20,000 nucleotides of DNA, taken from the IMG/VR virus record IMGVR_UViG_3300027776_000003, positions 48,882-68,881 of that record; one strand, written 5' to 3'. Made by a program: the position numbers and the translations under genes. The notes under the pieces are model-generated. The model was not told where the DNA came from. It ran no database searches and saw only the letters and a program-made list of their open reading frames with translations. Below, in pieces: positions 1 to 19,508 of the stretch (the stretch's first letter is position 1; each line of letters opens with the position of its first letter). Source of the DNA: an uncultured virus (IMG/VR IMGVR_UViG_3300027776_000003). Lineage: Duplodnaviria; Heunggongvirae; Uroviricota; Caudoviricetes.

Positions 1-1
1 C

Positions 2-260
2 TAGCGGCGTCGGCTCGCGCTCCACGCGAAACGTGCCGAGCACGCCCTGCTTCCGGTCCCGCCGCATCTTGGCGACGTCGATCACGAGGAGGCCCTCGTC
101 GGAGTCGTTTGCGTACCCGCGCGGGATGTCCTCCGAAGGGTGCGCGAAGACCGCGTTGCCGATGTGGCGATTCGCGAGCCCGCGCCGCTCGTTACTCGCG
201 AGCAGCCCCTCGGAGAGGATCGCCTCGTGATTGTCGGGATCGGTGCCGTGATACAGGACC
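2..260 (-). other. HGT-type (Tpt1/KptA- or PARP-like) ART domain, truncated by window edge
   Basis: VLYHGTDPDNHEAILSEGL...AVFA...GY...LLVID. Confidence 0.7.
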
Positions 261-3200
261 GACGGGCCGTGCTCCGCCCAAAAGTCGGCGTGCACCTCTT
301 CGTTGAGGCGGGTCACCTCATCGTCCACGTTGAGGTCGTCCACGAACTCCCGCACGCTCTCCACGCGAGAATAGCCGCCGCCGGTGACGCCGGGCTCCCA
401 TGTGATGACCGCCGTCTCCTCCTCCCCTCGGTGCGTGCGCGTGAACGTGGCCGCGTGCGCGTGCCCATAAGCAGACAGGTCTTGGCGCTCGGCGCCGAAG
501 TGCCGCAACACCTCATCGAACTGCTCGGGGGTCGCGGCCTCGTCGGCAGCGGCTTCGATGTCATCGCCCCATCCATCGTCGCCGTTGTCGGGGTCCGCCG
601 GCCACGGGCGCCAGCCGGCCGCCGGGTGCTCGCGGTAGAACGCCTCGGACGCTTCGGCGATGTCGGGGAACATCTCCCCCTGATTCTTGTCCCGGAACCG
701 GCCGATGTTGTCCCGGGGATGCTCCGCCTCAAAGTCCGCGCTCTTGTGGAACTTGTTCGAGCGCGTCGGGCGCGGGTTGAAGGCGCTCTTGATCTGGTTC
801 GGCGACAGCGGGATGAAGACGTAGTTGTCGCCGCCCTGCACCGCCTCGTTTGGCGAGGTGTTGGTATAGCGCAGCCCATCGTGGCCGCTGTCCTTCAACC
901 ACTGGCGATAGCGCCGCATCACCCGGAAGGCGAGCCCCTGCTTCGCCGGGTCACCGCGATGCAACACGAGGCGATCCGAGTGATTCCGGAGGATGAAGTG
1001 TTGCAGCGAGCGGTAGGTGGTCGTGCCGCTGTTGTGCTGGTTCGGCCACTCGAACCCGTCCCGCGCGGTCATCTTCTCGTGGAGCTTGCGCGCGTTGTCG
1101 CGCCACTCCCGGCCCTTGTAGTCATAACCGTTCTCCTGCCCGATCTCCGTCATCCACTCATAGAGCAGCTTTGGGCTCGCGGTGAGCGCCTGCGTGTACG
1201 CGTCGGCGGCCACCGCCTCCTCATCGCCCACCCGGCCCGACGAGATGTTCTCGTCGTCGTCGTACAGGTCTCGGAAGTGTGGTTGTGGGACTACACGCGG
1301 ATTGCGGATGGCGAGGTAGACCGGCACGACTCGCCCACCGGGCTTCGCGGCGAATGGCGTCGCGTCCCGCATCCACGACGGCACGGTCTCGCCGGCGGCG
1401 GCCATACGCGCAGCGTTTTCGTCCTGCACGAAGTCCCGGCCGTGCACCGCGAGCCCTTCGCGCAACAGGCGGTCGGCGCCCCACTGATCATCTTCGCGGG
1501 CGTAGATGCCCGCCGCGAACTGTGCCGCCGTCGCGGGCTCGCCGGTGAAGTGCGGCCCGAGCGCGCGGTCGATGGTCGTGCCGGTGTGGATGACGTGTCC
1601 GTTGCCGATGTCCTTCGTCTGGTCCGGGGGATCGCCCCGGAAGTTCGAGAACTGGTGGCGGGTGCCGTGGTACATCTGGCGCGGGGTGCCGTCAGCGTTC
1701 GTGACGACCGACCCGCCGAACCACTTCCGCCACTCGGGCGTGTCCCATCCCCCGCCCGGGAGCGGCTCGGGATCGCCGGCCATCACGGTCGAGTTGCGCC
1801 GCCAATGCGGCACCGTCGCATCGAGCAGCGCGGCCCCCTCACCCGTGGCGCCGCCCCATCGCACGCGATCCCCCTCGCGCTGGTCGAGGAACGCGCGAAT
1901 GAGTGCGCGCCCCACGCCTTGCCGGCGTGCGTCGGGGTGTACCGCGATCATCGAGACGGAATCCTCCCCGTTGTAGCTGACCGCTTGCACGACGCCGACC
2001 GCGCGGCCGCTGGCGTCCCGCGCCACGACGTTGTAGTTGACCTGTCCGCTGTACGCGTCGGTCACCTCGGTCGAGAACGACAGCGCCGTCTTGACCCACT
2101 GGCCGCCGTTCGGCTCACCCTTGGGCGCGCGCGGCTGGTCCGCGTCGAACTTCTGCACGCGTGCCTTGCGCGTGATCGTGATGTCCCCCGGCAGCCACAG
2201 CCACCGATCCTCTGACGATGGCGCATGCGCCACCGAGGCGGCCTTGCCGATGGTCGCTTTCGGCGTGTAGTGTGGCGCCAGCTTGGGCACCACCGTGATG
2301 ATCGCCATCGGGTTGCCGGCCATCGTGCGGTAGAACTGCCGGTGTTTCACGACGAACTCGGTCGCCGGCGGCAGGATGTACTCCTGCTCGTGCGAGCGAA
2401 TCGCCGGGATCGCGGGCCATCCGTCGGGCCAGATCGTTCGGATGATGGTGCCGCCGGCCCCGGCGAAGCTGGTCGCATTAGCCGGGTGTGTCGAGAACGA
2501 CGCGAACCCCTTGTCGGTGAATGCGTCGCCGGGCTTGAGCCTCGCGAGATCGCCCGCCAGCTCTCCCCGTACACCGCGATACATCTCGGTATCGCCGGCG
2601 TGCGGGAAGTGCCGAATCATCTCCTCCATGAGATCGAAGTCCGCCTTGCCGCGCTGCTCCGTCGCGTCGTCGAGCGACCACTGTCGCGTGCGAATGCCGC
2701 GCGCCGAGTCGTTGATCGGCGACGAGGACCGCTGATACCGTGAGATCGAGCCGCGCAAGAACGCGAGCGGGCCGCCCGACATTCGCAGCGCCTCGTCCGC
2801 ATCATCCTCGTAGCCCGGGAGCCCCGACAGTTCCGCCACGCGCTTCATGCGCTCCGTCACCGCGCCGCTCGTCGCCACGCCGGCGGCCGACCACGCCGCC
2901 TCGCTTCGCGTTTCGTGGTCAGAGTCCTCGACGGAGACGGCCTCCATCATCCCTCGGCTCCAATAGCCGAACGCCTCGTGCTCCGGCACGAACTGCACGC
3001 GCGCGCCCTTGGGGCCGTCCGTCGTCTGGTGCACCATGATGCCGACCCCGTTCTCGTCAGGGTCGATGCCACGGTTCACTTCCGCCACCATGCGCCGCTG
3101 CTCGCTGAGCATGTTCGCAGCGGACCGCGAGAACTCGTGGCGCCTAACGACCGCTTCGGCTGCGGCCTTGGCCTCCTCCATCGAGCCGTAGAACTTGCGC

Positions 3201-6200
3201 TGTGATGGCTGCGATGTATCAACCGGCACGAACTGGTTGATGTACGCGCTGATCGGGTCGATGACGAAGCCCTTGCTGCCAGCCGGGCTAATGACCAGCG
3301 TCCCGCGCAGCACCGACTCGTCAGCGGGCATCCACACGCCTTGCACGAGCTGGAAGGTGTCCTTGATCACGCCGCTCGCGATGGCGGTGCGCGCACGCTT
3401 GGCCTCTGCGGGCGACGAGAAGACAAACGCGCTTCGGCCATCCGGCCCCACCACGAACTCGGGCGCGTCCTCGCCAGTGTGCTGCGGGTACGCCTCAATC
3501 TCTTCGGGCGCTTGCGGTCCGGCTGCAACGGCCTCCACGCGGGCGGACCACGTGAGCGACGCCGCGAGGGCGCGCCCAACGCTCGCCGCTGTCGCGACGA
3601 ACTCGTTCTGGCCCGGCACCTCGGTGGCCATGCCTAACAACGCCTCGGCTTCTTCCTTCGTCGGCTTGAGCACCGCGAACTCCGGCCGGCGCCCATCGTG
3701 GTTGTAGTTGCTCGTGTGGCGTTGGATCGTCGCGATGCGCGACAGGCTATGCCCCGCGACGCGCACCGGCATGTCGTCCGGGCTGATGAACTGCCCGCCC
3801 GTCGGGTCGCCGGCCGCTGCGTGCAACATGCCGTTGGCATCCACGACGCCCGGCGCGGCCTTCGTGATGTTCGGGTCGCGGCGGTCGTAGGTGCCTCGAT
3901 TGCCGACCGCCGATTTCACCTGACGGGACGACCAGACGATGTAGTGCGCGGCATCCCCGCGCTGAAACTTGTGCTGCATCCCATTGAACACGCCCGGGTC
4001 CATGATGATGCCGTCGAACTTGAGGCGCCGCACGAGGTCGCGCTGGAACTGCTTGTACATGTTCGGGAACGTGTCGGTGCGCCCCCGCAGACGAGGGTCT
4101 CCCGCCCCCTCCACGTCGATCTGGCTGTCCATGAACGCGTAGCGAGTCGTCGCCGCCGTGAGCGCCTCGCCGAGGTCGATCTTCCCCTCGCCCCACTCCT
4201 CGCGGCGCATGGCGACATGCTCAAAGAATCGCTGTTGCATGTCCGCCACCTCCCCATCGCGCATCCCGTACTCGGCCCCCACGTCACGGAGCGCGCGCGC
4301 GAACAGCCGCACGCCGCGCCGGTCGAGGGTCGTCGGCTCGCCGTATCGGAATGACAGCTCCGACCCCTTCGCGTAGAGCAGCGCCGGCTTTTTCATCGCG
4401 AGGAACACGGGGACCGTCGCGCCGCCGTGAGTCACGCCGAGCGACTCGCGCGCGATCCGCAACTTCTCCTCCCGGGGGAGGTCGGCGCCGTCATCGTCGC
4501 GGTCGATGTTGGCCTCGATCCAGAGTTCGAGGTTGTTCCGGAGGTCGGGGCCGTCTGCCGAGGCGTAGTGTGCGCCGGCGTCCCCGAGGTCGTCGGTGAA
4601 GTAGTGGCCCGCGCCGAAGAAGTTGTCGGGGTTCGCGTAGGCGTAGCCGAACTCCTCGAAATCGCGCGTGGTCCCGTGCAGCACGGCCTCCGTGACCTTC
4701 GATCCGTCCATGAAGCGGCGCAGGTTCGCGGCCGCCTCCCCGAGCCCGGACGCTTCCAGCTCGCGCGCGTGATCCTCATACGACCGCCCGTCACCGAGCG
4801 ACGGCGCGCTCCCCTTCACCCACTGGCCACCGTTCGGCTCGCCCTTGGGCGCGCGCGGCTGGTCCGCGTCGAACTTCTGCACGCCGTCGGTTGGCGTCGG
4901 CATGGCATACGTGGGCCATTCGTCATAGAGGACGCGCCCCCCGCGCGAGATCGAGTCGGCCGGCCGATCCTGCCACGACTTCCCGAGCGCCGAGACCGTC
5001 CGTTTCCGCCCGGCGCTTACGACGCGTGCATAGCGCAGCCCCATGACGCGCGCGAAGTGGCGCATCGCCACGTGCGAGTGCTCGTTAATGGTGCGAACGT
5101 TCGCCTCTTCATTGGACATCCCACCGTTCACGCGCGTGGCCCATCGGTTGTTGAACGTGACGTGATGGCGGTCGAAGAAGTGGTCGGCAATCATGGCCAT
5201 CGCGATAGCGGCGCGCTCGTCCGGCGTGCGGTCCGTGTCCCCGGCTTGCATCCAGCGCGGGCGGAGCGTTCCCTCGATCTGCTCGCGCAGGAACCGTGTG
5301 TCGTGTCTCGCTTCGCTGCGCCGAATCGGCGTGTCGTTCGCGGACTCCTTCTCGTAATGCGCCGCGTGGTCGCGCACGAACTTGTCGATGGCGGTCGTCG
5401 CGTCCCAATCTTTCGGCCGCTGGAGTCGGTAGAGCACGCGCTGGCCATCCCACGACGTGCCAACCGCGCGGAGTTCCGCCATCCGCGTGCGGGTGAAGAT
5501 GGCCATGTCGTCCGTCGAGAACGAGGACGCGTTCGGGTGGTTGTGCGTCAGCGTGCCGCCGGCCATCGCGCGTAGTTCGTCGTCGGTGAACTCGACGGAG
5601 TTGTGGTTCCCCGTCTTCTCGAAGTTTGCCCCGACGCCGCCCGTCAGCGCCGCCGTCTCGATCTCGTCCTCGGCGATGCCCATCTCGAAGGCGGTCATCG
5701 TGCTGCCGGTTCGCGCCCACCGCCCACCGCCCTTCTGCCCCTTGGGGATGCGCGGCTGGTCGGCCTCGAACTTCACCACGTTGTGCCTGACGGTCGCGAC
5801 GCCCGCGCGCGCGAGCGCCCGTCGCACGGCGGCGATGGTGCGCGGTGCGTAGGATGCGAATCGGGTCGGGGCCATGCCGGCAACCTGCTGTGCCCCGAAG
5901 AGGTAGCTCGCCGCGTGGGCGAACGCTTCCTTGGGCGACGACAGCGCGTAGACGATGTTATCCTCGTCGAACGCGTTCGGCGCGATGGCGAGGGTGCGCT
6001 CGATCTTCTTCTTGTCGCGGGCGAGCGACCCGCGCACCGACGCCTTGTCCCACCCCCAATGACTCAGGGGCGCGGAGCCACCGATGGCGTAGTCGAGCGC
6101 GTGGCCGAACTCGTGCAGCACGATCTCGTGGAACACCGCGTCGGCCTTCTGCTCGTCGGTGAGGGCAATCACCTTGGTATGCCGGCGCGCGGTGATCCCA

Positions 6201-9200
6201 TCGTCCACGACGTGAACCATCGCCGCCATCTTGATCGTTGAGAACAGCACACCCCGGACAGGTCCGTCGCCGTCGTCCACGGAGTAGTGCAGCCCAGCCG
6301 CCGCCGCGAAACGCTCCGACGGCACGTGCCCAATCGCGGTGCCGGCGGCTGCCTCCTCCATCGAGGCCGCGACCGACACCCCCTCCGTGAGCGATGCCGC
6401 GATGCGGCGCCGCGCGCTGACCGGGAGCGTGTTGAAGATCGTCCGCACGCGCTTCGCATTCGCCCGCGCGGTGGCGTCGAGATCGGCACTCATCGCGGTG
6501 GGTCGGATGAGCAGCCCGTCAGGCCCACTCGCGTCAGCCAGCCCCGCGTAGCGGTTCCAGTCGGGTCGGCTGTCGATCACCCCGAGCGCGTCACTCCACC
6601 GCCCGCGCTCGTCGCGCGGCTGGTCGGCCCGGTACTTCTCGATCACGGTGAGGATCGCCTTCCGCATGTCGTCCGGGGACGCTGGCGGCCCTTTCTTCTT
6701 TCCCTTCTTTGGCGTCGTGCGGGCGAGCCCCGGCCGGCGCCGAACCGTGCGCTCCGGGTCCACATCCGGCTCGACGAATGCCTCGGGCTCGGCGGTGTCG
6801 GGCTCGGGCAGCGGATCGAGATCACGCGCGAGCGGGTCCGGCGCGCGCTTCCGGTCCGCGATGCGTTCGAGCAGCGTCTTGAACCACTCACGCGCCGCGC
6901 GCACCGCTTCGTTCTTGTTGTCACCGAACAGCGGCTCCCACCACGCGGAGCCCTTCGGATCGCCTTCCGGCGGCCCGGTCTCCACCACGGGGAACGGCCG
7001 CTCATCGGGTCCAACGGAGCCAAGCCGCGCCGGGAAGTTGGCGACGAGCGCATCGGCCGCGTCGGCGAGCATCTGATCGGCCGCCTCGGGGCTCACCTCC
7101 CACTCAGGCGGCAACGCGCCCGGGGCGGGAGTGATCACGAGCGTGCAGCGGCAGCCGTACGATTGCGGCGGCCCCCACACGGACTCGCCATCCACGATGA
7201 ACGACTCGTCGTAGGTGAGCGTCACGCCGTCCACCTCGCGGTGTTGGTCGCGCACCTTGTGGTCGCCCATCGTTTTCCACCGCTTCGTGATGCGCGTCGT
7301 GTCCGTGCCGGTGGCCGCGATGAACGCGTCCCACCCGGCGCGGAGCGTGGCGAGGTCGCGCTCGCGCCATTCCTTCATCGCCTCGACGCCGCGCAGATAC
7401 TCGTCGGCCCGGCGTCGGTACACGCCAGCCATGCGGTCGATCTGCTCCTGCGTGAACGGGGCGATCCCCCGGTCGCCGCGCTCCCATGCGGTGAGCGCCC
7501 CGATCCCTACCTGCGACAGGCGGTCATCGCCGCGCTGGTCGCGGAACACGCGCGCAAGGGCCATCGGATCGAGAGCTTGCAACTGGCGGCGGTAGCTCTC
7601 GGTCCACGCCGCGAGCCGACGCGCGCCGGCCTCGGACAGCGGCGGGAGCGTGTCGAGCGTGGCCTTCCCGACCGTGGCGCGCGAGGTGCGCCGCGTGATC
7701 GTGATGTCACCCGGGAGCCACACCCACCGATCATCCGGCGACGGCGCCGGGAGGTTCGGGTTCTCCTGCTTCGCAACCGTCGCCTTGGGCTTATACGCCT
7801 TCTGGAGGCGCGGGACGACCGTGACGAGCGTCATCGGGCTTTGCGTGACGGTGCGAAAGTGCTCGACGTGCTTGACGGTGAACTCCGTCCCGGGCGGGAG
7901 GATGTACTCCTGCTCATCGGAGCGCAGCGCCGGGATGGCGGGCCATCCGTCGGGCCAGATCGTTCGGATGATCGTGCCGCCCCTGCCGGCGAAGCTGAAC
8001 GCGTTCGTGTGGTGTGTCGTGAAGCTCGCAAAGCCCTTGTCGGTGAACGCGTCGCCAGACTTGAGCACCGCCAGATCACCCGCGAGCGCGCCCCTCACTC
8101 CGCGAAACATCTCCCGTGCGCCTTGCAACGGGAAATGCGGCACGAGCGCCGCCATGAGATCGAAGTCTGCCTTTCCAATCTCCGCCTGCCTGTCCTGTAA
8201 CGCGAAGTCACGCGTGCGGATACCGCGCGCCGAGTCGTTGATCGGCGACGATGACCGTTGGTAACGCTTGATCGAACCGCGCAGCGTGCCGAGCGTCCCG
8301 TTATCTCCGTGCGCCTCTTCGATGACGTCGGCGTCGCCCCCTGTCAGGCTTGGGTGCACAAGCCGCACGACGCGCGCGGCGGCCGCCGTGATGGCCGGGT
8401 CGTTGGCGCCCTCGCTCGACTCCGCAGCGGACCACGCGCGCCGGCTTTCCTCCTTTTGGTGGTCATCCTCGACGAGATGCGCCTGCATCATCGCGCGGTC
8501 GGCGTACCCAAACGCGATGTGCTCCGGGGAGAAATGGCCATACAACACGCGCGGCCCGTCCGATGTCTCCCCGAACACACGGAGCCCCGGTCCATCCTCC
8601 ACTACGGGGTCGATGCCGTTCTGTAGTGTTTCGGCGATCCAATACGCATCACCAAGATTCCGGGTGGCGGTCTCGTGCCACGCAAGACGCCGCATGATCG
8701 TACGCGCCTCAGCGGTGGCTCCTTCCAACGTGGGAAACCACGCGGCGGGTAGCTCCGAGCGCATGACATACGGCGCAGCGCCGGATGCTGCTATCACCGA
8801 GTAGCCGTTTGAGTCCGGGTGGATCGAGAGCGCCGGCTCATCGACACTCTGCCCGTTCGCGTAAGCCGCTTTTGCCCGATCCGCGTCCTCCTGCGATGCG
8901 TAGACGTGCCACCAGCCGGACCCGTCTTGATCCTCGACGATGGCCGGCTCCGCCGCGTTTGGGTGTTGGGGGTATGCGGCCAGCTCGTCGTCGGTCCGGT
9001 CTCGACGCTGCGCCCACCCTTTCAGCCGGTCGCGATACTGCACCGACGCGAGGAGCGCAGCCTCAAACTTCCGCGCCGTCGTCACCGGGTTGTAATCATC
9101 CGAGGCAATGGCCGCGATGGCTGCGGCCTCGGCCTCCGACTCGTACAGCGCGGATGTGTCGGGACGCAACGCGCCTGCACGCACGGCGCGCAGCGCACGC

Positions 9201-11881
9201 TCCGCTTTCTCTCGGACGGTTTTCAGTTGCATGACGGCTCCCTCGTCCGTCACGAACACCGGCCGATCTTCGTCCGACATGAACTGCCCGCCGGCCGGGT
9301 CACCAGCCGCCGCGTGCAACATGCCGTTCGCGTCCACGACGCCCGGCGCCGCCTTGGCGAATGGTGTCATGCCCGCCGGGTAGCGCACCATCGTGGGCGA
9401 GAGCGGGTCACGCAGCCGGCGCGCGCCGGGTTCACGGTATCCCTCGAACCCAAACTCGCGATAGAATGCCATGAGTTCCGCCTGCGTGCGCGGCCGGTGC
9501 TGTCCGATCACCCCCGGGATCGGGGACGCGAACAGGTCGAGGATCACGCCGTGCTTGTCGGCCAGCTCCGTCAGCATCTCCATCGCCTTGCGACCGCCGC
9601 CTCGCGTGACGGCAACCAACTCTTCCAAGTGCACGCCCTCGTCGCCGAGCGGGTACAGCTTGACCATCGCCGTGTAGTGCCGTTCCCCGCCACCCGTGAG
9701 GCGGAAGTTGGTCACGCGAATGCGCCAATCAACCGGATGGTCGAACGAGCGGGCCTCGAACTCCGCGACGAAGGCGTCAATCGCCTCTTTCCCCGAGAAC
9801 CGTCCGCCCTTGTCGCGCGGGTGCTTGGCCTCGAAGTCGGCGTCCTTGCCTAACGGGGCTCGCACGCGGATGGTGCACAGCGTGAGGCCGTCGTCGGCCG
9901 CCTTGTGCAGGGTTGTGGGCAGCTTGTTCGAGTGGAGGAGCGCGCGGGTGACGCGGATCGCGCGCGGGAACGCCCGCGCGAACTCCGTGCTCGCCACGCC
10001 TCGCACGTAGCGCGCGCCCATGAGGTACGCGTACGCGTCGGCGAACAACTCCGACGGCTTCACCAGTGGCGCCGTGAACGTATTCACCCACCGGGACGCG
10101 TCGGTGTCGCCCCATCCGCTCACGTCATCATCGCTCGCGCGCTTGAGCGTCGCGATCTTCTCGGACCCGAAGCTCGTGCCGCTGCGGCCCACGCGCCCGG
10201 CGAGCCCGAAGTCAATCGCGTGCCCGGTCTCGTGCAGGACAACGGAGCGCATGAGGTCCGCGCTGTCCGGTTCCGCGACATCGTTCATCGTCGCCACCGT
10301 CTTGCGGTAGCGTTCCACGCTGCGCTCGCCAATGCACATCTCGGCGCCCGTCATGAAGTACGCCGCACATCCGGGCTCGCTGCTTTGCGCGTCGAGCGAC
10401 GTGAGCGACACCTGTGGCAGGACCTTCACCGTCCCAAGGCTGCCATACTCGCGCGTCGAGGCGAGGAGCGCGCGGTGCTCCACCGGCAATGAGGCGAGCG
10501 TGTCCCCGACCAGATGTTGCGTCTCCTCGCTCGCGCCCATCGGGATGATCACGATAGCCCCTTTCGGCAACTCGGCATCGACGCCGTTCCACGGGGTCTC
10601 GCTCGCCAAGACGGCGAGTTCTTGCGAGACGACGGGGTGCTTGCCGGCGTTACGCAGAAACGCGCGTGCCGCCTCGCGGGTGGCCGGATCGCGCACATCC
10701 TGCTGCCACTTCGCCGCCTCGTGCTCCCCCGATGGGCCATCCCCCACGACCTCCTGCACCGCCGCCCGCACATGCTTGATGTGCTCGGCGCCTAACAGCA
10801 CGGGCGAGCCCGCGTGCACACCCGAGAACGCCCGCTGGCCGCGCAAGCTGCCGACGTGTAGCCCACCCGACAGCCGGACCCATTGGCCCGCTGTCGGCGT
10901 CCCCGCCGGCACGCGCGGCTGCGCCGGGTCGTACTTCGCCAGCGCGTCGCGGTCCACGTCGCAGACGTGCAGGAACGCCCACGCGTTCAGGTCGAGCATC
11001 GGCCCGGCGTCGTCCTCGCCCTTTCGCACGGCTGCGCGGCGCGTCGCCACGTAGCCCCCAAGCCGCTGCATCGCCGCCGCGTCGTCGAACCGCAGCACGA
11101 GGTTGCCGGCGCCGATTCCCGCGTAGCGGTGAAACCCGTTGTCGGCAAGCAGTCGATGGGCCGCCGCGCGCGGCTTCATGTCCGCGATGCGCCAGATGGC
11201 TTTCGGGTCCGGGTCGTCCAGCGCGCGCCACACCTCGGCCACCTGTGCCTTCGTCAGGTCACCGGCCTTCTGCATCGCGGCCATGTGCCGCTGCACCATC
11301 TCGCGGCGCCACGGATCGCGATCCGGCCAGTTGTCGGCGTGCGTGAACCCCATGCGCGGCCACGCATACGCCCCATCTTGGGCGGCGCCCATTTCGGCGC
11401 GGTTGATGTTCAACCCGGGCGTCCGTGCCGCGTCGAGCGCGTTAGCCACCAACTGCGCGCCGGCGCCCCGCTGCATGGTCTGCACGCCGATGGAGTCGAG
11501 GAAGAGACGCCCGGGTTGCGCCGGTCCGTCTCCTAGCTCGAACTCATACGTGGCCGCCAGCACCGCGCGGCCGCCCTTCCCGGTGCCGTCGATCTGCACG
11601 CGGAGCACGTCCGTCGGGTCGCCGTTGCCTGAGTACCGCTTGGCCACCTTGCCGACGGTGACCTCGTAGGTGTATTCGTCCGGCATCCCGGCGACCATGC
11701 GCCGCGCGAAGTCCTCCGCCTGCACGCCGGCAACCCGCAACACAGCGGCCGCCTCTGGCCGCACCGAGGCGCTCACGCGCGCCGGCATCGCGTCCCCGTC
11801 GGTCCAGCGGCCGCCGGCATCACGCGGTTGGGTGGGATCGTACTTCCCCACCAGCGCCGAGAACCATGCGTGCGTCGTCAT
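2..11881 (-). CDS. Giant (>=3960 aa, 3' end beyond window) MuF-containing polyvalent protein / putative effector polyprotein
   Basis: ATG at 11881-11879 overlaps the TGA of the upstream gene (ATGA coupling). Hand translation (MTTHAWFSALVGKYDPTQPRDAGGRW...VEREPTPL) shows no stop to the window edge. The ORF track has no minus-strand ORF in this frame in 1-11881, while the long plus-strand shadow ORFs (140, 4427, 6287, 8819 etc.) all lie in its antisense register. Many recognisable enzyme motifs; located after terL and portal. Confidence 0.95.
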   Translation of the reverse strand, partial: MTTHAWFSALVGKYDPTQPRDAGGRWTDGDAMPARVSASVRPEAAAVLRVAGVQAEDFARRMVAGMPDEYTYEVTVGKVAKRYSGNGDPTDVLRVQIDGTGKGGRAVLAATYEFELGDGPAQPGRLFLDSIGVQTMQRGAGAQLVANALDAARTPGLNINRAEMGAAQDGAYAWPRMGFTHADNWPDRDPWRREMVQRHMAAMQKAGDLTKAQVAEVWRALDDPDPKAIWRIADMKPRAAAHRLLADNGFHRYAGIGAGNLVLRFDDAAAMQRLGGYVATRRAAVRKGEDDAGPMLDLNAWAFLHVCDVDRDALAKYDPAQPRVPAGTPTAGQWVRLSGGLHVGSLRGQRAFSGVHAGSPVLLGAEHIKHVRAAVQEVVGDGPSGEHEAAKWQQDVRDPATREAARAFLRNAGKHPVVSQELAVLASETPWNGVDAELPKGAIVIIPMGASEETQHLVGDTLASLPVEHRALLASTREYGSLGTVKVLPQVSLTSLDAQSSEPGCAAYFMTGAEMCIGERSVERYRKTVATMNDVAEPDSADLMRSVVLHETGHAIDFGLAGRVGRSGTSFGSEKIATLKRASDDDVSGWGDTDASRWVNTFTAPLVKPSELFADAYAYLMGARYVRGVASTEFARAFPRAIRVTRALLHSNKLPTTLHKAADDGLTLCTIRVRAPLGKDADFEAKHPRDKGGRFSGKEAIDAFVAEFEARSFDHPVDWRIRVTNFRLTGGGERHYTAMVKLYPLGDEGVHLEELVAVTRGGGRKAMEMLTELADKHGVILDLFASPIPGVIGQHRPRTQAELMAFYREFGFEGYREPGARRLRDPLSPTMVRYPAGMTPFAKAAPGVVDANGMLHAAAGDPAGGQFMSDEDRPVFVTDEGAVMQLKTVREKAERALRAVRAGALRPDTSALYESEAEAAAIAAIASDDYNPVTTARKFEAALLASVQYRDRLKGWAQRRDRTDDELAAYPQHPNAAEPAIVEDQDGSGWWHVYASQEDADRAKAAYANGQSVDEPALSIHPDSNGYSVIAASGAAPYVMRSELPAAWFPTLEGATAEARTIMRRLAWHETATRNLGDAYWIAETLQNGIDPVVEDGPGLRVFGETSDGPRVLYGHFSPEHIAFGYADRAMMQAHLVEDDHQKEESRRAWSAAESSEGANDPAITAAAARVVRLVHPSLTGGDADVIEEAHGDNGTLGTLRGSIKRYQRSSSPINDSARGIRTRDFALQDRQAEIGKADFDLMAALVPHFPLQGAREMFRGVRGALAGDLAVLKSGDAFTDKGFASFTTHHTNAFSFAGRGGTIIRTIWPDGWPAIPALRSDEQEYILPPGTEFTVKHVEHFRTVTQSPMTLVTVVPRLQKAYKPKATVAKQENPNLPAPSPDDRWVWLPGDITITRRTSRATVGKATLDTLPPLSEAGARRLAAWTESYRRQLQALDPMALARVFRDQRGDDRLSQVGIGALTAWERGDRGIAPFTQEQIDRMAGVYRRRADEYLRGVEAMKEWRERDLATLRAGWDAFIAATGTDTTRITKRWKTMGDHKVRDQHREVDGVTLTYDESFIVDGESVWGPPQSYGCRCTLVITPAPGALPPEWEVSPEAADQMLADAADALVANFPARLGSVGPDERPFPVVETGPPEGDPKGSAWWEPLFGDNKNEAVRAAREWFKTLLERIADRKRAPDPLARDLDPLPEPDTAEPEAFVEPDVDPERTVRRRPGLARTTPKKGKKKGPPASPDDMRKAILTVIEKYRADQPRDERGRWSDALGVIDSRPDWNRYAGLADASGPDGLLIRPTAMSADLDATARANAKRVRTIFNTLPVSARRRIAASLTEGVSVAASMEEAAAGTAIGHVPSERFAAAAGLHYSVDDGDGPVRGVLFSTIKMAAMVHVVDDGITARRHTKVIALTDEQKADAVFHEIVLHEFGHALDYAIGGSAPLSHWGWDKASVRGSLARDKKKIERTLAIAPNAFDEDNIVYALSSPKEAFAHAASYLFGAQQVAGMAPTRFASYAPRTIAAVRRALARAGVATVRHNVVKFEADQPRIPKGQKGGGRWARTGSTMTAFEMGIAEDEIETAALTGGVGANFEKTGNHNSVEFTDDELRAMAGGTLTHNHPNASSFSTDDMAIFTRTRMAELRAVGTSWDGQRVLYRLQRPKDWDATTAIDKFVRDHAAHYEKESANDTPIRRSEARHDTRFLREQIEGTLRPRWMQAGDTDRTPDERAAIAMAMIADHFFDRHHVTFNNRWATRVNGGMSNEEANVRTINEHSHVAMRHFARVMGLRYARVVSAGRKRTVSALGKSWQDRPADSISRGGRVLYDEWPTYAMPTPTDGVQKFDADQPRAPKGEPNGGQWVKGSAPSLGDGRSYEDHARELEASGLGEAAANLRRFMDGSKVTEAVLHGTTRDFEEFGYAYANPDNFFGAGHYFTDDLGDAGAHYASADGPDLRNNLELWIEANIDRDDDGADLPREEKLRIARESLGVTHGGATVPVFLAMKKPALLYAKGSELSFRYGEPTTLDRRGVRLFARALRDVGAEYGMRDGEVADMQQRFFEHVAMRREEWGEGKIDLGEALTAATTRYAFMDSQIDVEGAGDPRLRGRTDTFPNMYKQFQRDLVRRLKFDGIIMDPGVFNGMQHKFQRGDAAHYIVWSSRQVKSAVGNRGTYDRRDPNITKAAPGVVDANGMLHAAAGDPTGGQFISPDDMPVRVAGHSLSRIATIQRHTSNYNHDGRRPEFAVLKPTKEEAEALLGMATEVPGQNEFVATAASVGRALAASLTWSARVEAVAAGPQAPEEIEAYPQHTGEDAPEFVVGPDGRSAFVFSSPAEAKRARTAIASGVIKDTFQLVQGVWMPADESVLRGTLVISPAGSKGFVIDPISAYINQFVPVDTSQPSQRKFYGSMEEAKAAAEAVVRRHEFSRSAANMLSEQRRMVAEVNRGIDPDENGVGIMVHQTTDGPKGARVQFVPEHEAFGYWSRGMMEAVSVEDSDHETRSEAAWSAAGVATSGAVTERMKRVAELSGLPGYEDDADEALRMSGGPLAFLRGSISRYQRSSSPINDSARGIRTRQWSLDDATEQRGKADFDLMEEMIRHFPHAGDTEMYRGVRGELAGDLARLKPGDAFTDKGFASFSTHPANATSFAGAGGTIIRTIWPDGWPAIPAIRSHEQEYILPPATEFVVKHRQFYRTMAGNPMAIITVVPKLAPHYTPKATIGKAASVAHAPSSEDRWLWLPGDITITRKARVQKFDADQPRAPKGEPNGGQWVKTALSFSTEVTDAYSGQVNYNVVARDASGRAVGVVQAVSYNGEDSVSMIAVHPDARRQGVGRALIRAFLDQREGDRVRWGGATGEGAALLDATVPHWRRNSTVMAGDPEPLPGGGWDTPEWRKWFGGSVVTNADGTPRQMYHGTRHQFSNFRGDPPDQTKDIGNGHVIHTGTTIDRALGPHFTGEPATAAQFAAGIYAREDDQWGADRLLREGLAVHGRDFVQDENAARMAAAGETVPSWMRDATPFAAKPGGRVVPVYLAIRNPRVVPQPHFRDLYDDDENISSGRVGDEEAVAADAYTQALTASPKLLYEWMTEIGQENGYDYKGREWRDNARKLHEKMTARDGFEWPNQHNSGTTTYRSLQHFILRNHSDRLVLHRGDPAKQGLAFRVMRRYRQWLKDSGHDGLRYTNTSPNEAVQGGDNYVFIPLSPNQIKSAFNPRPTRSNKFHKSADFEAEHPRDNIGRFRDKNQGEMFPDIAEASEAFYREHPAAGWRPWPADPDNGDDGWGDDIEAAADEAATPEQFDEVLRHFGAERQDLSAYGHAHAATFTRTHRGEEETAVITWEPGVTGGGYSRVESVREFVDDLNVDDEVTRLNEEVHADFWAEHGPSVLYHGTDPDNHEAILSEGLLASNERRGLANRHIGNAVFAHPSEDIPRGYANDSDEGLLVIDVAKMRRDRKQGVLGTFRVEREPTPL
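760..1742 (-). other. ART-PolyVal-like ADP-ribosyltransferase domain B
   Basis: TPEWRKWFGGSVVTNADGTPRQMYHGT...GPHFT...VVPVYLAIRNP...GHDGLRY...PNQIKSA. Confidence 0.87.
1815..2080 (-). other. GNAT acetyltransferase domain 3
   Basis: Canonical motif A MIAVHPDARRQGVGRALI, then WGGATGEGAAL. Confidence 0.87.
2285..2755 (-). other. R-S-E clade ADP-ribosyltransferase domain, copy 2 (paralog of 7810-8280)
   Basis: RYQRSSSPINDSARG...EMYRG...FTDKGFASFS...HEQEYILP. Confidence 0.88.
3863..4725 (-). other. ART-PolyVal-like (HGT-type) ADP-ribosyltransferase domain A
   Basis: VLHGTTRDFEEF...FGAGHYFTD...PVFLAMKKP...FDGII...HYIVW...QVKSAVGNRGTYD. Confidence 0.85.
5020..5700 (-). other. JAB/MPN (JAMM)-like domain
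   Basis: Upstream acidic EIETAA plus TLTHNHPNASSFSTDD (H-x-H...S-x-x-D), then ELRAVG. Confidence 0.8.
5800..6460 (-). other. Zincin metallopeptidase domain 2 (HExxH, lethal factor-like)
   Basis: IVLHEFGHALDY (HEFGH at 6101-6115) and downstream YALSSPKEAFAH. Confidence 0.87.
7130..7630 (-). other. MuF (Mu gpF / SPP1 gp7-like) minor head protein domain, internal
   Basis: TQEQIDRMAGVYRRR...KRWKTMGDHKVRDQHREVDG...PPQSYGCRCT: W-x-T-x-x-D-x-x-V-R-x-x-H and CRC signature. Confidence 0.9.
7810..8280 (-). other. R-S-E clade (VIP2/C3-like) ADP-ribosyltransferase domain, copy 1
   Basis: RYQRSSSPINDSARG...EMFRG...FTDKGFASFT...DEQEYILP: catalytic R, S and E-x-E signature. Confidence 0.88.
9380..9780 (-). 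other. GNAT acetyltransferase-like domain 2
   Basis: VHLEELVAVTRGGGRKAMEMLTELADKHGVILDL...ELMAFYREFGF (motif-B-like FYxxxGF). Confidence 0.8.
9930..10530 (-). other. Zincin metallopeptidase domain 1 (HExxH, anthrax lethal factor / MPTase-like)
   Basis: VVLHETGHAID (HETGH at 10220-10234) followed by the third-ligand motif SELFADAYA. Confidence 0.85.
11050..11700 (-). other. GNAT acetyltransferase-like domain 1 of giant protein (approximate bounds)
   Basis: LFLDSIGVQTMQRGAGAQLVANALDAA...AAQDGAYAWPRMGF: motif-A-like QRGAG and C-terminal YAW-x-R-x-GF. Confidence 0.7.
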
Positions 11882-13980
11882 GAGCGCCCCCATCCCGGGC
11901 CGAATACCATCCGGATCGCCTTGGTGAGGTCGCGGCCGGCGTTGAACACGATCTTGCGCTTCCCGCCCCGCTTGAACTCGATGCGCCCGCTGCTCATGGC
12001 CGCGCCTAACGTGGCGTCGGTATAGCCGTAGCCCTCCGCCAACTTCGTGAACGGACGCGTGCCGAGGTCGGCCACCCGCTCGATCACCGGCGCGTGCTTC
12101 GGGGCGAACTGCATCTTGACCGTCAGGTGTCCTCCGTCGCCCTCATTCCACCCGAATCCTTCGACCTTCCCGCCGTACATGCCTAACGTCAGCTTCGGGA
12201 GGATGACGCTCGTCTCCATCGCCGCGCGCGTCAACCGCTGCTTGACCCCGGGGTGGATCGAGGGCTGATCCATGATGTTGCGGACCATCTGCTCGCGTGC
12301 CTGCTCCACCGTGATCTCCTTCCGGTGCAGCGCCACGAGCACGTCCTTGTTCTTCGGCACGTAGCGGATCACGCCCGGGAGCTTCTCCTGCTGGAAGAGG
12401 GCGAGGTTGTCGGCCACACGGAACGCGCTCCCCACCGCATCGTTCTCCCAATCGACGTCGGCCTCGTAGTGCCGCATGATCACGTCCGACGTGTGCCGCG
12501 CGGCGCCGTCGCCGAGGGCCTCGCGCACCATCCCGCGCAGGTTCGTGTTGAAGTGCTGCGCCGACCACCGGGGATGCTGGCCGTCGAGGAAGACGCGGCT
12601 CGGGGGCGTGAGATACCCCGCGTCGTGGAACGCGGCCGCCATGAACAGGACGGCCCTGTCCTCGGCGGAGTTCTCGTGCGTGCCCGGTACGGCCTTGAGG
12701 ATCGCGAGCGACTGATCGAGGTCCTGCAACAGGTGGCGCGCGCCGTGGTCGCCGAGCGACCGCGCGATGGACTCGGACTCCTGCGCCGCCATGTGGTCGA
12801 ACCACGACTCGGCCAGCCGGCGCGCGGCCGCGACCGGCGCCCGGGCCGTCAGGAGCGTCTCGTGGAAGTCCACCGCGCTGCGCTCGATCATGCGGGCGGT
12901 GTCTTGGTGGAACGCGCCCTCTTTCACGAGCGTCGCCACGCGCGCCTTGACGGCGGCGCCATACTCGGCGGCGCCGTCCCACGCACCCGCGACCCCCGAG
13001 ACGGCCGACACGGCGCGCTTGACCGTCACGGATGCGTTGGCCTGACGGTCCTGCTCCTCGGGGTCGAGCGCGTCCCACGCCTTGCGCCGGTCCGGGATCG
13101 AGCGCCCGGTCCACGAGGCGGTGTCGAAGCCCCCGCCGGCCCCTCTGGCGCGCCGCGTCTGCTCCGGTGGCGTCTTCCCCTTGCCGGCGCCGTCCGCCCC
13201 GCTGGCGGGGCTGGCAGAGGCGCCGGCGCCGTCCTTGGGGGCGAACTGTCCGCCGCGCTTATCGCCCTTCGGGTGCCGCTTGTACTCGCGCGCCGCCTTG
13301 GCGAACCACGCCCACGGGTCGCCCGACTCCTCGCGGCTTTTCTTGATCCACTTCTCTTTGATCATTTGGGCCACCCGTTCGGTGTCTTCATAGTGCAGAT
13401 CGGTGTGCACGGTCCCGTCCCCGCCCTTGCCCCAATAGACCACCATCGTGTGCGGCGTGTCGGTCGCGCTGCGGTCGATGTTGGTATCCCGCCAGCGAAT
13501 GCCGTCGTAGCCCTTGCGGCGGAGGTCTTCGCGCAGCCGGTCCATGTAGCGCGCGCGCTCGCCGGTCTCCGGATACGTCGGGCGCATCACCAGCGTGAGG
13601 ACCTCGGCCTTGCTCATCTTTTTGCCGAGGTACTTCATCGCGCGTTGCGGGGTGGCGAACTGCTCAAAGAATCCGGACTTGACGTCGAGGAACCGCGCGC
13701 CCTGCAACAGCTCGTGGTAATCCGCGTTGGCCCGGCGGACGCGCGGCCCGAACTTGCGCGCGTGCGCCGGGTCGTCGCTCCACCACGTCCCCATGTCGTC
13801 GATAGCGCGCGCGTCGGTGCCGAGGCGCCGCGAGAACCCGCCCCGCGTGATCGCGCCCTCGACAGCGAAGATCGTCCCGTGATACCAGCCGGTGCCGCGC
13901 GTCCACTTCCCGTCGTCGTCGCGCGGCTGGTCCTTGTTGTACTTCGTCACCAGCGCCGCGCACCACTCGGCCACGGTCAT
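11878..13980 (-). CDS. 700-aa two-effector protein: N-terminal HGT-type ART domain plus C-terminal HD phosphohydrolase domain
   Basis: Start MTVAEW at 13980, 2 nt after the upstream TAA. ART motifs WYHGT...GTWWSDDP...GYDGI (~13430-13890). HD motifs DHGARH...AAAFHDAGY (HD at 12622-12627)...RH...VADNL. Two tag peptides. Confidence 0.88.
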   Translation of the reverse strand: MTVAEWCAALVTKYNKDQPRDDDGKWTRGTGWYHGTIFAVEGAITRGGFSRRLGTDARAIDDMGTWWSDDPAHARKFGPRVRRANADYHELLQGARFLDVKSGFFEQFATPQRAMKYLGKKMSKAEVLTLVMRPTYPETGERARYMDRLREDLRRKGYDGIRWRDTNIDRSATDTPHTMVVYWGKGGDGTVHTDLHYEDTERVAQMIKEKWIKKSREESGDPWAWFAKAAREYKRHPKGDKRGGQFAPKDGAGASASPASGADGAGKGKTPPEQTRRARGAGGGFDTASWTGRSIPDRRKAWDALDPEEQDRQANASVTVKRAVSAVSGVAGAWDGAAEYGAAVKARVATLVKEGAFHQDTARMIERSAVDFHETLLTARAPVAAARRLAESWFDHMAAQESESIARSLGDHGARHLLQDLDQSLAILKAVPGTHENSAEDRAVLFMAAAFHDAGYLTPPSRVFLDGQHPRWSAQHFNTNLRGMVREALGDGAARHTSDVIMRHYEADVDWENDAVGSAFRVADNLALFQQEKLPGVIRYVPKNKDVLVALHRKEITVEQAREQMVRNIMDQPSIHPGVKQRLTRAAMETSVILPKLTLGMYGGKVEGFGWNEGDGGHLTVKMQFAPKHAPVIERVADLGTRPFTKLAEGYGYTDATLGAAMSSGRIEFKRGGKRKIVFNAGRDLTKAIRMVFGPGWGRS

Positions 13981-14202: not shown

Positions 14203-15714
14203 TTAGGCTTCCCCCTCCTCGGTGTCGTCCTCTTCGTCGTCGGCCGTGTCCCGCGTGGGCGTCCCGTCGCCGAAGTGCGTGGGGCCATCGTCGGCCGCGT
14301 CCTCCGGCTGCTCGCCCGCTTGTGTGTCCTGCCCCTTGTCCGGCGTGTTGTTCGGTGACGCCGCCCCCGGTGCCCCCGGCTTCTCCTCGCCCTCGGCGCC
14401 CGGCTTCCCCGCGTTGGGGTCCGGCACGGGTGCGTTCAGCTCTTCCTCGGTCGCCTCGGGCAGCGAGCCGGCCTCGCGCACGAACTGGCGCATGTTGGGG
14501 CTGACGGTGAGATAGCCCGCCGTGGTCATGGCCGTGATGTACGTCGAGAGCGCGGCGAGGTCGCGCTTCGACAGGTTGCCATGCCGGAGCTTCGGCGCCC
14601 GGTCCTCGGGGTAGCCGTTCAGCGCCATCCAGCGATGCACGAGCGAGTGCTGGAACTCGCCCTCCATGATGTCCGCAAGCCCGCCCGTGGCGTGCTCGTA
14701 CATCGTCGTCTTGTCCTCGGACAGCGCCCACGAGCCCGTGGACCCTCCACCGCCTAACAACAGCCAGTCGGCGAGCACCGAGGCCGCCATGCGCTTGTCG
14801 TAGCGTTCGAGCGTCGGGTTGAAATCGACGTTCGAGCGGCCGTCGTTCATCTTGTACTCGATGTCGAGCAACGGCACCTTCTGGCCCCCCTGTCCCGGGA
14901 GCCCGCCCGACTCGATCACGTCCGACGGCAACACGATGGCGGCCTGCCGGTCCTCGGCGATCTTTTTCACCGAGGCGACGAACGAGGCATAGAGCGCGCG
15001 CTCGTCCGGCGTCGCGGTCGTCGTCATCCAGCGCATCGGCGCGCGACCCACGACAAGGCCGGCCGAGCGCATGAGCTTCCGCCCCTCGGCCTCTTCGAGC
15101 ACGCGTTTCTGTACGTAATACTTGTAGGCCCCACGCAAGATGCTGCGGCCCTCGGGGTTCGCCGACTCCAGCACCGTGCGCGGGATGCACAGCTTCTCGA
15201 TGGGGATGAAGACGAGCGGCCGGTCGTAGGGCTGTTGCCACATCCCGAGCAGCACGTCGCCCTCGCCCTCGTCGTCGAACTCCCACTGGTTCACGGACGT
15301 CTGCGCGCGATAGGCGATCTTGTCGATGGCCAGCGTGCCCTTCGCCTTGTCGCGTCGGTAGACCAGCTCTAGCGGCGCGTAGCCGTAGATGATCATCGTG
15401 CTCGCGTCCGCGACGACGCCCGGCCACGGCGTCTTGCGGAGGTCCACGAAGAGCATCTTGCGGAACTCGTCGGCGAACCGCTTCGCCTCGCGTGAGTCGT
15501 CCGCCGGCTCTACGCGCCATTGCATCCGGCGGAGGAGCATCTGCACCGAGTAGACCATGCCATGCAGGAGCGCGTCGGTGTACGCCATCTCGCGATACGC
15601 GTACGCGCCGCGCACCCCGTTCAGCTCGGGCACCCAATCCCACGCGAGGAACCCGCCCGCGCGGTTGATGCCGGATGACCCAAGCTCTGAGGTGAAGTCC
15701 TTGATGTTGGCCAT
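14203..15714 (-). CDS. Phage portal protein (DUF935 / Mu gp29-like), 503 aa
   Basis: Directly after terL. Features: ELGSSG, YREM..D, YGYAPLELVY, NPEGRSILRGAY, GSWALSEDK, acidic low-complexity C-tail. MANIKD start preferred over the GTG extension to 15774. Confidence 0.88.
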   Translation of the reverse strand: MANIKDFTSELGSSGINRAGGFLAWDWVPELNGVRGAYAYREMAYTDALLHGMVYSVQMLLRRMQWRVEPADDSREAKRFADEFRKMLFVDLRKTPWPGVVADASTMIIYGYAPLELVYRRDKAKGTLAIDKIAYRAQTSVNQWEFDDEGEGDVLLGMWQQPYDRPLVFIPIEKLCIPRTVLESANPEGRSILRGAYKYYVQKRVLEEAEGRKLMRSAGLVVGRAPMRWMTTTATPDERALYASFVASVKKIAEDRQAAIVLPSDVIESGGLPGQGGQKVPLLDIEYKMNDGRSNVDFNPTLERYDKRMAASVLADWLLLGGGGSTGSWALSEDKTTMYEHATGGLADIMEGEFQHSLVHRWMALNGYPEDRAPKLRHGNLSKRDLAALSTYITAMTTAGYLTVSPNMRQFVREAGSLPEATEEELNAPVPDPNAGKPGAEGEEKPGAPGAASPNNTPDKGQDTQAGEQPEDAADDGPTHFGDGTPTRDTADDEEDDTEEGEA

Positions 15715-19080: not shown

Positions 19081-19508
19081 CACTCCTCCTCTACGGTGAG
19101 GCGCCACGCGGCGGCGATGAGGTCCACCTCTTCGCCCGTCAGGCGCGGCACGCTATCGTCACACAGAATATCACACGCCTTGTTCCACTCCTCCCGCGTG
19201 ATCGTGCGCCGTGCGGGCTCAGGCGGTACGTGTGGCCCAGCCGCATTGAGATAGCGGCTGACCGACTCTGCAATGCGCGGCACTTCCACGCTATGCAGCT
19301 CTGGAATATCGCCGCTGATGAACCCGGCGAACTCGCGTAACGCCGTTTCCACAGGTGACGGTGGTCGCTCCGTCTCAGGCGGCGGCGCGGCTTCAAGGTC
19401 GCGGACGAGTTGCTCGGCAATCACACAACGCGCGTCCTTCCAGTCGTATGTCACGCGTGCCAGCTCGGCCACGATCTTTGCCAGCTGCAACAGTGGGGTG
19501 TCGGTCAT
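19080..19508 (-). CDS. Hypothetical protein, 142 aa
   Basis: GGAGG SD and ATGA overlap with the upstream gene. Confidence 0.75.
   Translation of the reverse strand: MTDTPLLQLAKIVAELARVTYDWKDARCVIAEQLVRDLEAAPPPETERPPSPVETALREFAGFISGDIPELHSVEVPRIAESVSRYLNAAGPHVPPEPARRTITREEWNKACDILCDDSVPRLTGEEVDLIAAAWRLTVEEE

What the first reader, a model, noticed from the sequence alone, without database searches (positions are those of the whole stretch)
695..13944. Twelve copies of a short peptide tag mark the start of almost every effector module across two genes: candidate capsid-loading or ejection signal
Seen in sequence (minus strand): KYNKDQPRDDDGKW (13903-13944, before ART); KAAREYKRHPKGDKRGGQF (13243-13299, before HD); KYDPTQPRDAGGRW (11804-11845, GNAT1); KYDPAQPRVPAGTPTAGQW (10880-10936, peptidase 1); KDADFEAKHPRDKGGRF (9797-9847, GNAT2); KAAPGVVDANGMLHAAAGDPAGGQF (9281-9355, ART module 1); KYRADQPRDERGRW (6596-6637, peptidase 2); KFEADQPRIPKGQKGGGRW (5717-5773, JAB); KFDADQPRAPKGEPNGGQW (4820-4876, ART-PolyVal A); KAAPGVVDANGMLHAAAGDPTGGQF (3788-3862, ART module 2); KFDADQPRAPKGEPNGGQW (2096-2152, GNAT3+ART); KSADFEAEHPRDNIGRF (695-745, last ART). 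The shared core is [QH]-P-[RK]...G-[QRK]-[WF]; the two KAAPG copies keep only H...GGQF. The structural MuF domain has no tag. Inference: one tag per cargo unit, attached to unrelated enzymes, behaves like an addressing signal for packaging into or delivery from the head, analogous to the capsid targeting sequence of T4 internal proteins. It could also act as a recombination junction for swapping effectors.
Basis: partly seen in the sequence, partly recalled or inferred. Interest (0 to 1): 0.92.

Follow-up and report, generated by a model that had tools for sequence, protein, structure and literature searches.

The report
Retained tag on phage-head cargo
This uncultured phage puts one short peptide at the front of each enzyme it appears to carry in its head, right behind a predicted cut site of its head protease, so the peptide probably labels each freed enzyme for holding and delivery, though nobody has shown what reads it.

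Summary
Observation confirmed: all 12 peptides are at the stated coordinates, and two more lie just outside the window in an XkdF-type prohead-protease gene. The first Lys is probably not part of the tag: all 14 copies follow [VILF]-x-K, a motif also enriched in the scaffold, which I read as the protease cut site. The tag would then be the new N-terminus of each released cargo, the opposite of the removable T4 capsid targeting sequence. Relatives support this: the residue before the tag is genome-specific and tracks the protease family (K/R in 18 of 20 S78/XkdF clusters, D in 12 of 14 DUF2213 clusters); in an SPP1-like group with no detected protease all 23 tags sit just after a start codon; two further tag classes follow the same cut residue. 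A natural variant lacks one whole module starting at its Lys, with 1 nt of overlap, so tags are module borders rather than crossover sites. The tag is accessory (10 of 25 capsid-selected relatives) and some cargo lacks it. Reader and cleavage are unmeasured. I found no paper on it; this scan noted a similar or the same tag in other genomes.

The parts
15783..17453 (-). terminase large subunit (556 aa)
   Evidence: Pfam Terminase_6N E 0.0012, below its cut-off; position before the portal
14203..15714 (-). portal protein, Mu-type (503 aa from ATG); no tag
   Evidence: Pfam Portal_Mu E 2e-28, phrog_113
11878..13980 (-). 700-aa cargo protein: leader - cut - tag - ART-like - cut - tag - HD-like
   Evidence: start matches the 700-aa record P0154; domain labels by motif inspection only
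1..11893 (-). polyvalent MuF polyprotein, 4013 aa (ends at G000 48733, 149 nt beyond the window), 10 tags
13903..13950 (-). V-T-K predicted cut site plus tag 1 (before ART-like domain)
13243..13305 (-). F-A-K cut site plus tag 2 (long loop, His type; before HD-like domain)
11804..11851 (-). V-G-K cut site plus tag 3 (before GNAT1-like)
10880..10942 (-). L-A-K cut site plus tag 4 (before HExxH peptidase 1)
9797..9853 (-). L-G-K cut site plus tag 5 (before GNAT2-like)
9281..9361 (-). F-A-K cut site plus divergent tag 6 (KAAPG type; before ART module 1)
7707..9353 (-). stretch absent, in frame, from a natural variant: the whole ART module 1 from its Lys847 to Asp1396
   Evidence: run X11 contig at depth 22.7 joins 7706 to 9354, 1 nt ambiguity
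6635..7663 (-). MuF fragment: preceded by V-G-K, no tag
   Evidence: Pfam Phage_Mu_F E 1.5e-9
6596..6643 (-). I-E-K cut site plus tag 7 (before HExxH peptidase 2)
5717..5779 (-). V-V-K cut site plus tag 8 (before JAB-like)
4820..4882 (-). V-Q-K cut site plus tag 9 (before ART-PolyVal)
3788..3868 (-). I-T-K cut site plus divergent tag 10 (KAAPG type; before ART module 2, paralog of module 1)
2096..2158 (-). V-Q-K cut site plus tag 11 (before GNAT3 + ART-PolyVal, two domains under one tag)
695..751 (-). F-H-K cut site plus tag 12 (before last ART-like domain). Outside the window follow: 512-aa ORF G000 47202-48740 with tags 13 and 14 and a C-terminal XkdF protease, scaffold G000 46117-47148, and major capsid protein G000 44650-45648
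13408..13409 (.). site of a roughly 744-nt insertion in the same natural variant, near the end of the first ART-like domain; content not seen
   Evidence: record 6 of run X11

Best explanation
A two-part code for head cargo. (1, inferred) The three tagged proteins enter the prohead, carried by their MuF or protease domain or by a short leader. (2, inferred, well supported) The XkdF protease cuts after [VILF]-x-K, as it would in the scaffold, and frees about 14 cargo fragments. (3, shown as sequence pattern) Each cargo fragment, but not the MuF or protease fragment, starts 0-4 residues ahead of an aromatic-x(3-4)-[QH]PR-loop-G[RKQ][WF]-T motif and a Gly/Ser linker. (4, inferred, weakest) This retained N-terminal motif docks the fragment on a partner inside the head (portal face, inner shell or packaged DNA) so that it is kept and queued for ejection with the genome; in phages without a protease the same motif, placed right after the start codon, also has to do the loading. 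The enzymes (ARTs, GNATs, peptidases) then act on the newly infected cell.
For: 14 of 14 tags follow [VILF]-x-K (chance about 4e-15 from per-ORF coverage); 13 of 20 scaffold Lys are [VILF]-x-K (P 2e-6 to 4e-4); protease His445/Ser501 invariant in 10 aligned XkdF domains. In 148 homologous polyproteins (640 of 709 tags used) the residue before the tag is shared within a protein (identity 0.495 vs 0.181 between proteins) and falls to background by -10; 100 of 127 proteins with 3 or more tags have one residue in all tags (permutation mean 15, max 27). That residue follows the protease family: K/R in 34 of 36 S78/XkdF loci and 0 of 24 DUF2213 loci, D in 20 of 24 vs 5 of 36; after clustering proteases at 50%, 18 of 20 vs 0 of 14 and 2 of 20 vs 12 of 14. 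A different tag class follows the same residue in the same genome (L in L053, L171, L191; K in L147), which copying of one cassette cannot explain. SPP1-like group without a protease hit (15 loci): 19 of 23 tags have ATG within 7 codons vs 18 of 147 in protease loci, and the other 4 have GTG. Tags are spaced one domain apart (median 241 aa) and rarely near a C-terminus (5 of 147 within 60 aa). MuF is never within 240 aa downstream of a tag, while 58 of 117 portal ORFs carry a tag, nearly always after the portal domain. Whole tagged modules are gained and lost.
Against: T4 delivers foreign proteins with a removable CTS alone (PMC9026906, passages), so no ejection tag is needed there. The tag is accessory: 4 of 73 capsid-selected relatives by the strict pattern, 10 of 25 with long upstream coverage by a broader one, and L464 and L452 carry MuF-fused cargo without a tag; Acb1 and InPase fusions in tag-bearing loci often lack one. 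[VILF]-x-K is not sufficient: 34 sites in the polyprotein, roughly half inside modules. The scaffold-match test across 48 loci was weak (196 of 20000 permutations; K and L not enriched; top residue matched in 18 of 48). Exceptions: a tag 8 aa before the protease in L033, D/A-type tags beside an XkdF in L180. Tag positions themselves are also more alike within proteins (0.68 vs 0.34), so shared ancestry contributes. The SPP1-like group is one clade, and 'no protease' rests on five local HMMs over at most 16 kb.
Confidence: 0.55

Rival explanations
1. Loading signal only: the tag binds scaffold or shell during prohead assembly; many tags give avidity or are left over from fusion of once stand-alone genes, and the tag is idle after the cut.
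For: Stand-alone genes scattered in SPP1-like prophages have nothing in common but the N-terminal tag; domains are known to accrete from solo genes (PMC5512222, passages).
Against: Portal-, MuF- and protease-fused cargo is loaded by fusion yet keeps a tag right behind the cut; the cut-to-tag distance is held at 0-4 residues; shared residues are kept while codons drift.
Confidence: 0.2
2. The tag acts after entry, in the host cell (tethering enzymes to the incoming DNA or a membrane site, or protecting the new N-terminus).
For: The same motif occurs with unrelated portal, capsid and tail families and across many host phyla, which is hard to square with one evolved phage partner; invariant Arg, Gly and aromatic residues; a recalled resemblance to the GxGGRF loop of NF-YA (from memory).
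Against: Mean net charge of the tag is -0.9 and class 3 often has no Arg; no Pfam or PDB match to a DNA-binding family; host diversity argues as much against a host protein reader; many tags begin with Ala, Asp, Glu or Ser, so no uniform N-degron.
Confidence: 0.12
3. DNA-level recombination junction for swapping effectors.
For: Cut site plus tag is 96% identical over 71 nt in front of two unrelated cargos; modules are gained and lost at tag borders.
Against: Synonymous codon differences at shared residues in 9 of 10 pairs; the same peptide in AT-rich and GC-rich genomes; the natural loss in run X11 has 1 nt of overlap and its other end is not in a tag. Tag similarity may still help shuffling as a side effect.
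Confidence: 0.06
4. Prime-side docking motif that helps the prohead protease cut between folded domains.
For: Fixed position right after the predicted cut.
Against: Same tag with K-, R-, D-, N- and L-type sites and different protease families; present where no protease was found; MuF, protease and scaffold sites are predicted to be cut without it.
Confidence: 0.07

Closest known systems
Phage-type polyvalent proteins (Iyer et al. 2017, PMC5512222; passages read)
   Same: Many unrelated effector domains (ART-PolyVal, zincin peptidase, GNAT) with MuF in one chain, in a portal-terminase module; assemblin-like peptidase at a C-terminus; presumed packaged and injected.
   Different: The passages seen name no repeated inter-domain peptide or head-protease cut code ('linker' 0 hits; 'repeat', 'motif', 'signal' passages are about other things); they propose processing by the zincin domains. 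Supplements were not read.
T4 capsid targeting sequence of IPI-III (PMC9026906; passages read)
   Same: A short shared peptide on unrelated head cargo, coupled to a prohead-protease cut.
   Different: CTS is a 10-19-residue N-terminal propeptide removed by gp21; this tag is behind the cut, retained, internal in polyproteins, and shared across unrelated phage lineages. The closer CTS analogue here may be the Trp-rich leader before the Lys, which is clade-specific.
Giant-phage ejection proteins cut at A-X-E by gp245 (SPN3US, PMC10052503; passages read)
   Same: Three-residue small/hydrophobic-x-P1 site shared by head substrates.
   Different: P1 is Glu; propeptides are removed; no common retained N-terminal motif is reported in the passages seen.
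MuF polymorphic toxins (Jamet et al. 2017, PMC5576092; passages read)
   Same: MuF-linked toxin domains proposed to be loaded in the head and injected.
   Different: N-terminal MuF with one C-terminal toxin; here MuF is central among about ten cargos; 'motif' and 'cleav' have 0 hits in that text.

Membership tests
T4-type capsid targeting sequence | N-terminal propeptide ending in the protease site | tested here: not met
   All 14 tags lie C-terminal to the predicted site; 11 are internal
T4-type capsid targeting sequence | Removed in the mature head | not testable with these tools
   Position predicts retention; no proteomics exists here
T4-type capsid targeting sequence | Sufficient to load a foreign protein | not testable with these tools
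   Stand-alone N-terminally tagged genes are only suggestive
Phage polyvalent proteins | 2-15 disparate domains in one chain | tested here: met
   MuF, ART-PolyVal x2, GNAT above Pfam cut-off, further modules by motif
Phage polyvalent proteins | Portal-terminase head context | tested here: met
   TerL, portal, XkdF, capsid adjacent
Phage polyvalent proteins | Packaged and injected | not testable with these tools
   Only a weak match of one cargo to T7-like 'internal virion protein' (E 5e-3)
MuF polymorphic toxins | N-terminal MuF with C-terminal toxin | tested here: not met
   MuF at aa 1534-1585 of 4013
MuF polymorphic toxins | Temperate phage, downstream immunity gene | not tested
   No lysogeny or immunity search was run
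XkdF (Peptidase_S78_2) prohead protease | Family match with conserved His and Ser | tested here: met
   PF14550 E 3.6e-11 above cut-off; His445 and Ser501 invariant in 10 sequences; their catalytic role is recalled
XkdF (Peptidase_S78_2) prohead protease | Cuts after hydrophobic-x-Lys | tested here: inconclusive
   Statistical only; no paper with a measured XkdF site found (listing)
Site-specific recombination junction | DNA-level conservation and crossovers within the site | tested here: not met
   Codon drift; one variant breakpoint pair with 1-nt overlap
NF-YA/CCT-type minor-groove motif (recalled) | Profile match and basic character | tested here: not met
   No Pfam hit among 146 members, no such PDB hit, net charge -0.9

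The most novel reading that the evidence does not exclude
A portable, retained N-terminal delivery signal, in at least three interchangeable sequence classes, used across tailed phages of many host phyla regardless of portal, capsid or tail family: exposed either by whatever cut the local head protease makes or by a start codon, and sufficient to have a protein held in the head and ejected with the DNA. It would be the first defined ejection address for head cargo and a lookup key for thousands of virion-delivered effectors.
Probability: 0.35. Interest if true: 0.93.

Novelty: new variant of a known kind. Interest (0 to 1): 0.8.

Why it matters
How MuF- and portal-linked effectors and polyvalent proteins are processed and delivered has been a hypothesis since 2017. 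The pattern gives testable answers: where the chains are cut, where each effector begins, and which unknown domains are cargo. It also predicts the specificity of unstudied head proteases from sequence (Lys for XkdF, Asp for core DUF2213, which has no assigned function in Pfam). At least 734 protein clusters at 50% identity carry the motif, so the tag is a mining handle for day-zero anti-defence and host-takeover enzymes.

Tried and rejected
Complex prediction of tag with portal: never ran, so no verdict on any partner. AlphaFold2 of a 30-mer with 146 tags gave a small hairpin (bridge Arg7-Trp13, pLDDT 74, pTM 0.27); Foldseek found nothing. No Pfam, PHROG or NCBIfam family for the tag; ESM Atlas best score 0.83, unnamed. 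PDB: only phage 7-7-1 baseplate hub (9RKU, gp113) with a partial tag lacking the aromatic anchor, E 0.009, the only match in that genome. Cultured phages: tblastn and blastn with a single tag gave nothing usable; 0 of 7 fetched records had a tag. A second cut site making an excised spacer is not general; a Trp-rich leader is not general (17 of 75 first tags vs 21% expected). Scaffold composition test weak. Portal-based locus searches found no relatives. No RNA holder listed on record. Three of four laid runs were too fragmented to show joints, and the short-sided joints in X17 were set aside as likely other organisms. Literature: 10 searches found no description of the tag; subscription journals and the supplements of Iyer 2017 and Jamet 2017 were not seen and could hold it.
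Full report
Setting. The window is the end of a 68,881-nt phage contig with direct terminal repeats, CheckV 100%, held by wastewater and freshwater metagenomes (17 rows, 8 studies, 8 rows possibly the source). Host unknown; GC about 68%. The minus strand reads terminase, Mu-type portal, a 700-aa ORF, a 4013-aa MuF polyprotein, and then, outside the window, a 512-aa ORF ending in an XkdF protease (PF14550, E 3.6e-11), a scaffold-like ORF, a small ORF, a Phage_cap_E capsid protein and siphovirus-type tail genes.

Observation. The 12 peptides are exact. The core pattern has 12 hits in all six frames of the genome, 10 in the window and 2 in the protease ORF; with the two divergent KAAPG copies that makes 14 in three adjacent head genes and none elsewhere. 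Shuffles give 0.0085 on average. The copies are not all independent: the KAAPG modules are 50% identical paralogues, and two copies share 96% DNA identity over 71 nt that cover only cut site plus tag.

The Lys is probably a cut site. The scaffold has 13 such sites among 20 Lys (P 2e-6 to 4e-4). The MuF fragment and the protease domain are preceded by the same motif but have no tag. The protease keeps His445 and Ser501, invariant in 10 aligned XkdF domains. Head proteases with three-residue sites are established (A-X-E in SPN3US, PMC10052503, passages). The motif is not sufficient, since the polyprotein has 34 copies, about half inside modules.

Relatives. A profile of 12 tags found 734 clusters at E 0.001 or better among 1.84 billion representatives, 121 at 1e-10. 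In 148 of the best 150 (self and a near-copy dropped) there are 709 tags; 640 were used after dropping 12 without an aromatic anchor and 57 within 30 aa of the N-terminus. The residue before the anchor is shared within a protein (0.495 vs 0.181) and identity falls to background by -10, so whole-flank duplication does not explain it; 100 of 127 proteins with three or more tags have one residue in every tag (permutation mean 15, max 27), and 49 of 65 non-K proteins do (mean 8, max 17). Positions inside the tag are also more alike within proteins, so cassette copying contributes. Tags are one domain apart (median 241 aa) and followed by a Gly/Ser/Thr linker. In K-type proteins P3 is V, I, L or F in 64% of 315 sites against 25% for other Lys.

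Natural experiment. With local profiles seeded from Pfam hits, core DUF2213 loci have D before the tag (20 of 24; K/R 0 of 24) and S78/XkdF loci have K/R (34 of 36; D 5 of 36); after clustering proteases at 50% the figures are 12 of 14 and 0 of 14 against 2 of 20 and 18 of 20. Divergent DUF2213-like loci show N, L or A. A matching test on protease C-terminal regions was weak (196 of 20000 permutations, K not enriched), and L180 and L033 are exceptions. In an SPP1-like group of gut prophages (15 loci, no protease hit), tags head small stand-alone genes: 19 of 23 have ATG within 7 codons against 18 of 147 in protease loci, and the other 4 have GTG after a GGA(G). The tag is therefore N-terminal in the predicted mature protein either by cut or by start codon. 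Two more classes, [YF]NxxHDxxG[RE]F and GDxxGH[PE]F[RHY]GNQ[YW], occur in the same slots after the same genome-specific residue; the KAAPG copies resemble the His-only long-loop form seen in L049.

Context and controls. 102 of 113 distinct tag loci of 12 kb or more have a head or packaging gene (27 of 35 among genome loci). MuF is never closer than 240 aa downstream of a tag, while 58 of 117 portal ORFs carry one, almost always after the portal domain. Among 73 distinct relatives chosen by capsid protein, not by tag, 4 match the strict pattern; 10 of 25 with at least 5.5 kb upstream match a broader one, with 0 hits in 377 kb downstream; L464 and L452 have MuF-fused cargo and no tag. The tag is thus accessory and not obligatory for fused cargo.

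Modules move as units. In run X11 a contig at depth 22.7 skips window 7707-9353, 549 codons in frame, from Lys847 of tag 6 to Asp1396, with 1 nt of ambiguity; the same run has about 744 extra nt at 13408-13409 whose content I could not see. An 86% identical relative of the 700-aa ORF has an extra leader-cut-tag-peptidase cassette in front (P0158). Shared residues differ in codon in 9 of 10 tag pairs. Tags mark module borders and are selected as peptide; they do not look like crossover sites.

Mechanism. Shown: the sequence pattern and its statistics. Inferred with good support: cutting after [VILF]-x-K that leaves the tag at each cargo N-terminus. Inferred weakly: what the tag does. One tag per released piece, even on cargo already loaded by fusion, points to a job after maturation, most simply docking inside the head for retention and ejection (0.55); loading only (0.2), action in the host cell (0.12), protease docking (0.07) and recombination (0.06) are the rivals. 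The model of the tag is a small hairpin of modest confidence; its mean charge of -0.9 argues against plain DNA binding.

Comparison and novelty. The carrier is an ordinary phage polyvalent protein (PMC5512222 and PMC9503650, passages). The system works like T4 head cargo in coupling a shared peptide to a protease cut, but it fails CTS membership, since the CTS is the removed part (PMC9026906, passages). Ten library searches and term searches inside the named papers found no description of the tag; supplements and subscription journals were not seen. No Pfam, PHROG or NCBIfam family covers it. My cut-site reading was written down before I looked at earlier notes; notes e1-5948233, e1-5356772 and e1-6044020 describe a similar or the same tag in other genomes and are unchecked leads, not support. 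Verdict: real, widespread, apparently unpublished; new variant of a known kind; interest 0.8.

Noticed in passing
P0028; L053, L079, L147, L171, L191: A distinct tag class GDxxGH[PE]F[RHY]GNQ[YW]T alternates with the PRD class in the same polyproteins after the same cut residue.
   Followed up: partly
L381:3903-5264 (phage 7-7-1 baseplate hub gp113, PDB 9RKU): A partial tag with Gly/Ser linker sits in a loop of a baseplate hub protein, the only match in that genome; chance or remnant is undecided.
   Followed up: partly
L004, L029, L035, L038, L060, L132 and other DUF2213 loci: DUF2213 occupies the protease slot and predicts Asp-specific sites; divergent members go with Asn, Leu or Ala.
   Followed up: partly
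L311:431-1234, L331:7974-9224, L312:7995-8894, L325:7995-8954: Melainabacteria contigs carry stand-alone N-terminally tagged genes, some among housekeeping genes; prophage remnants or host use of the tag.
   Followed up: no
L316:3-587: A Gly/Arg/Asp-rich low-complexity protein of an alphaproteobacterial MAG contains the full motif, so the core is not strictly phage-limited.
   Followed up: no
window 13942-13980, 13297-13320, 11843-11881; P0158-P0160: A Trp-rich leader ends at the Lys in this clade and could be the removable loading signal; not enriched in the wider set.
   Followed up: partly
window 13408-13409: About 744 nt inserted in run X11, likely in frame; content not seen.
   Followed up: no
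L001:18007-18657 (G000 48006-48656): First cargo of the protease ORF weakly matches 'internal virion protein' of T7-like Synechococcus phages S-CBP42 and P60 (E 5e-3 and 0.6).
   Followed up: no
L012, L023, L031, L060: Acb1-family domains fused to portal, MuF or protease mostly have no tag directly in front.
   Followed up: no
window 5357-6450: Dense substitutions in run X11 over the JAB-like and peptidase 2 modules suggest a swapped allele.
   Followed up: no
window 19505-20000: Two short repeat families (D7, D10) point to a duplicated small ORF upstream of the packaging genes.
   Followed up: no
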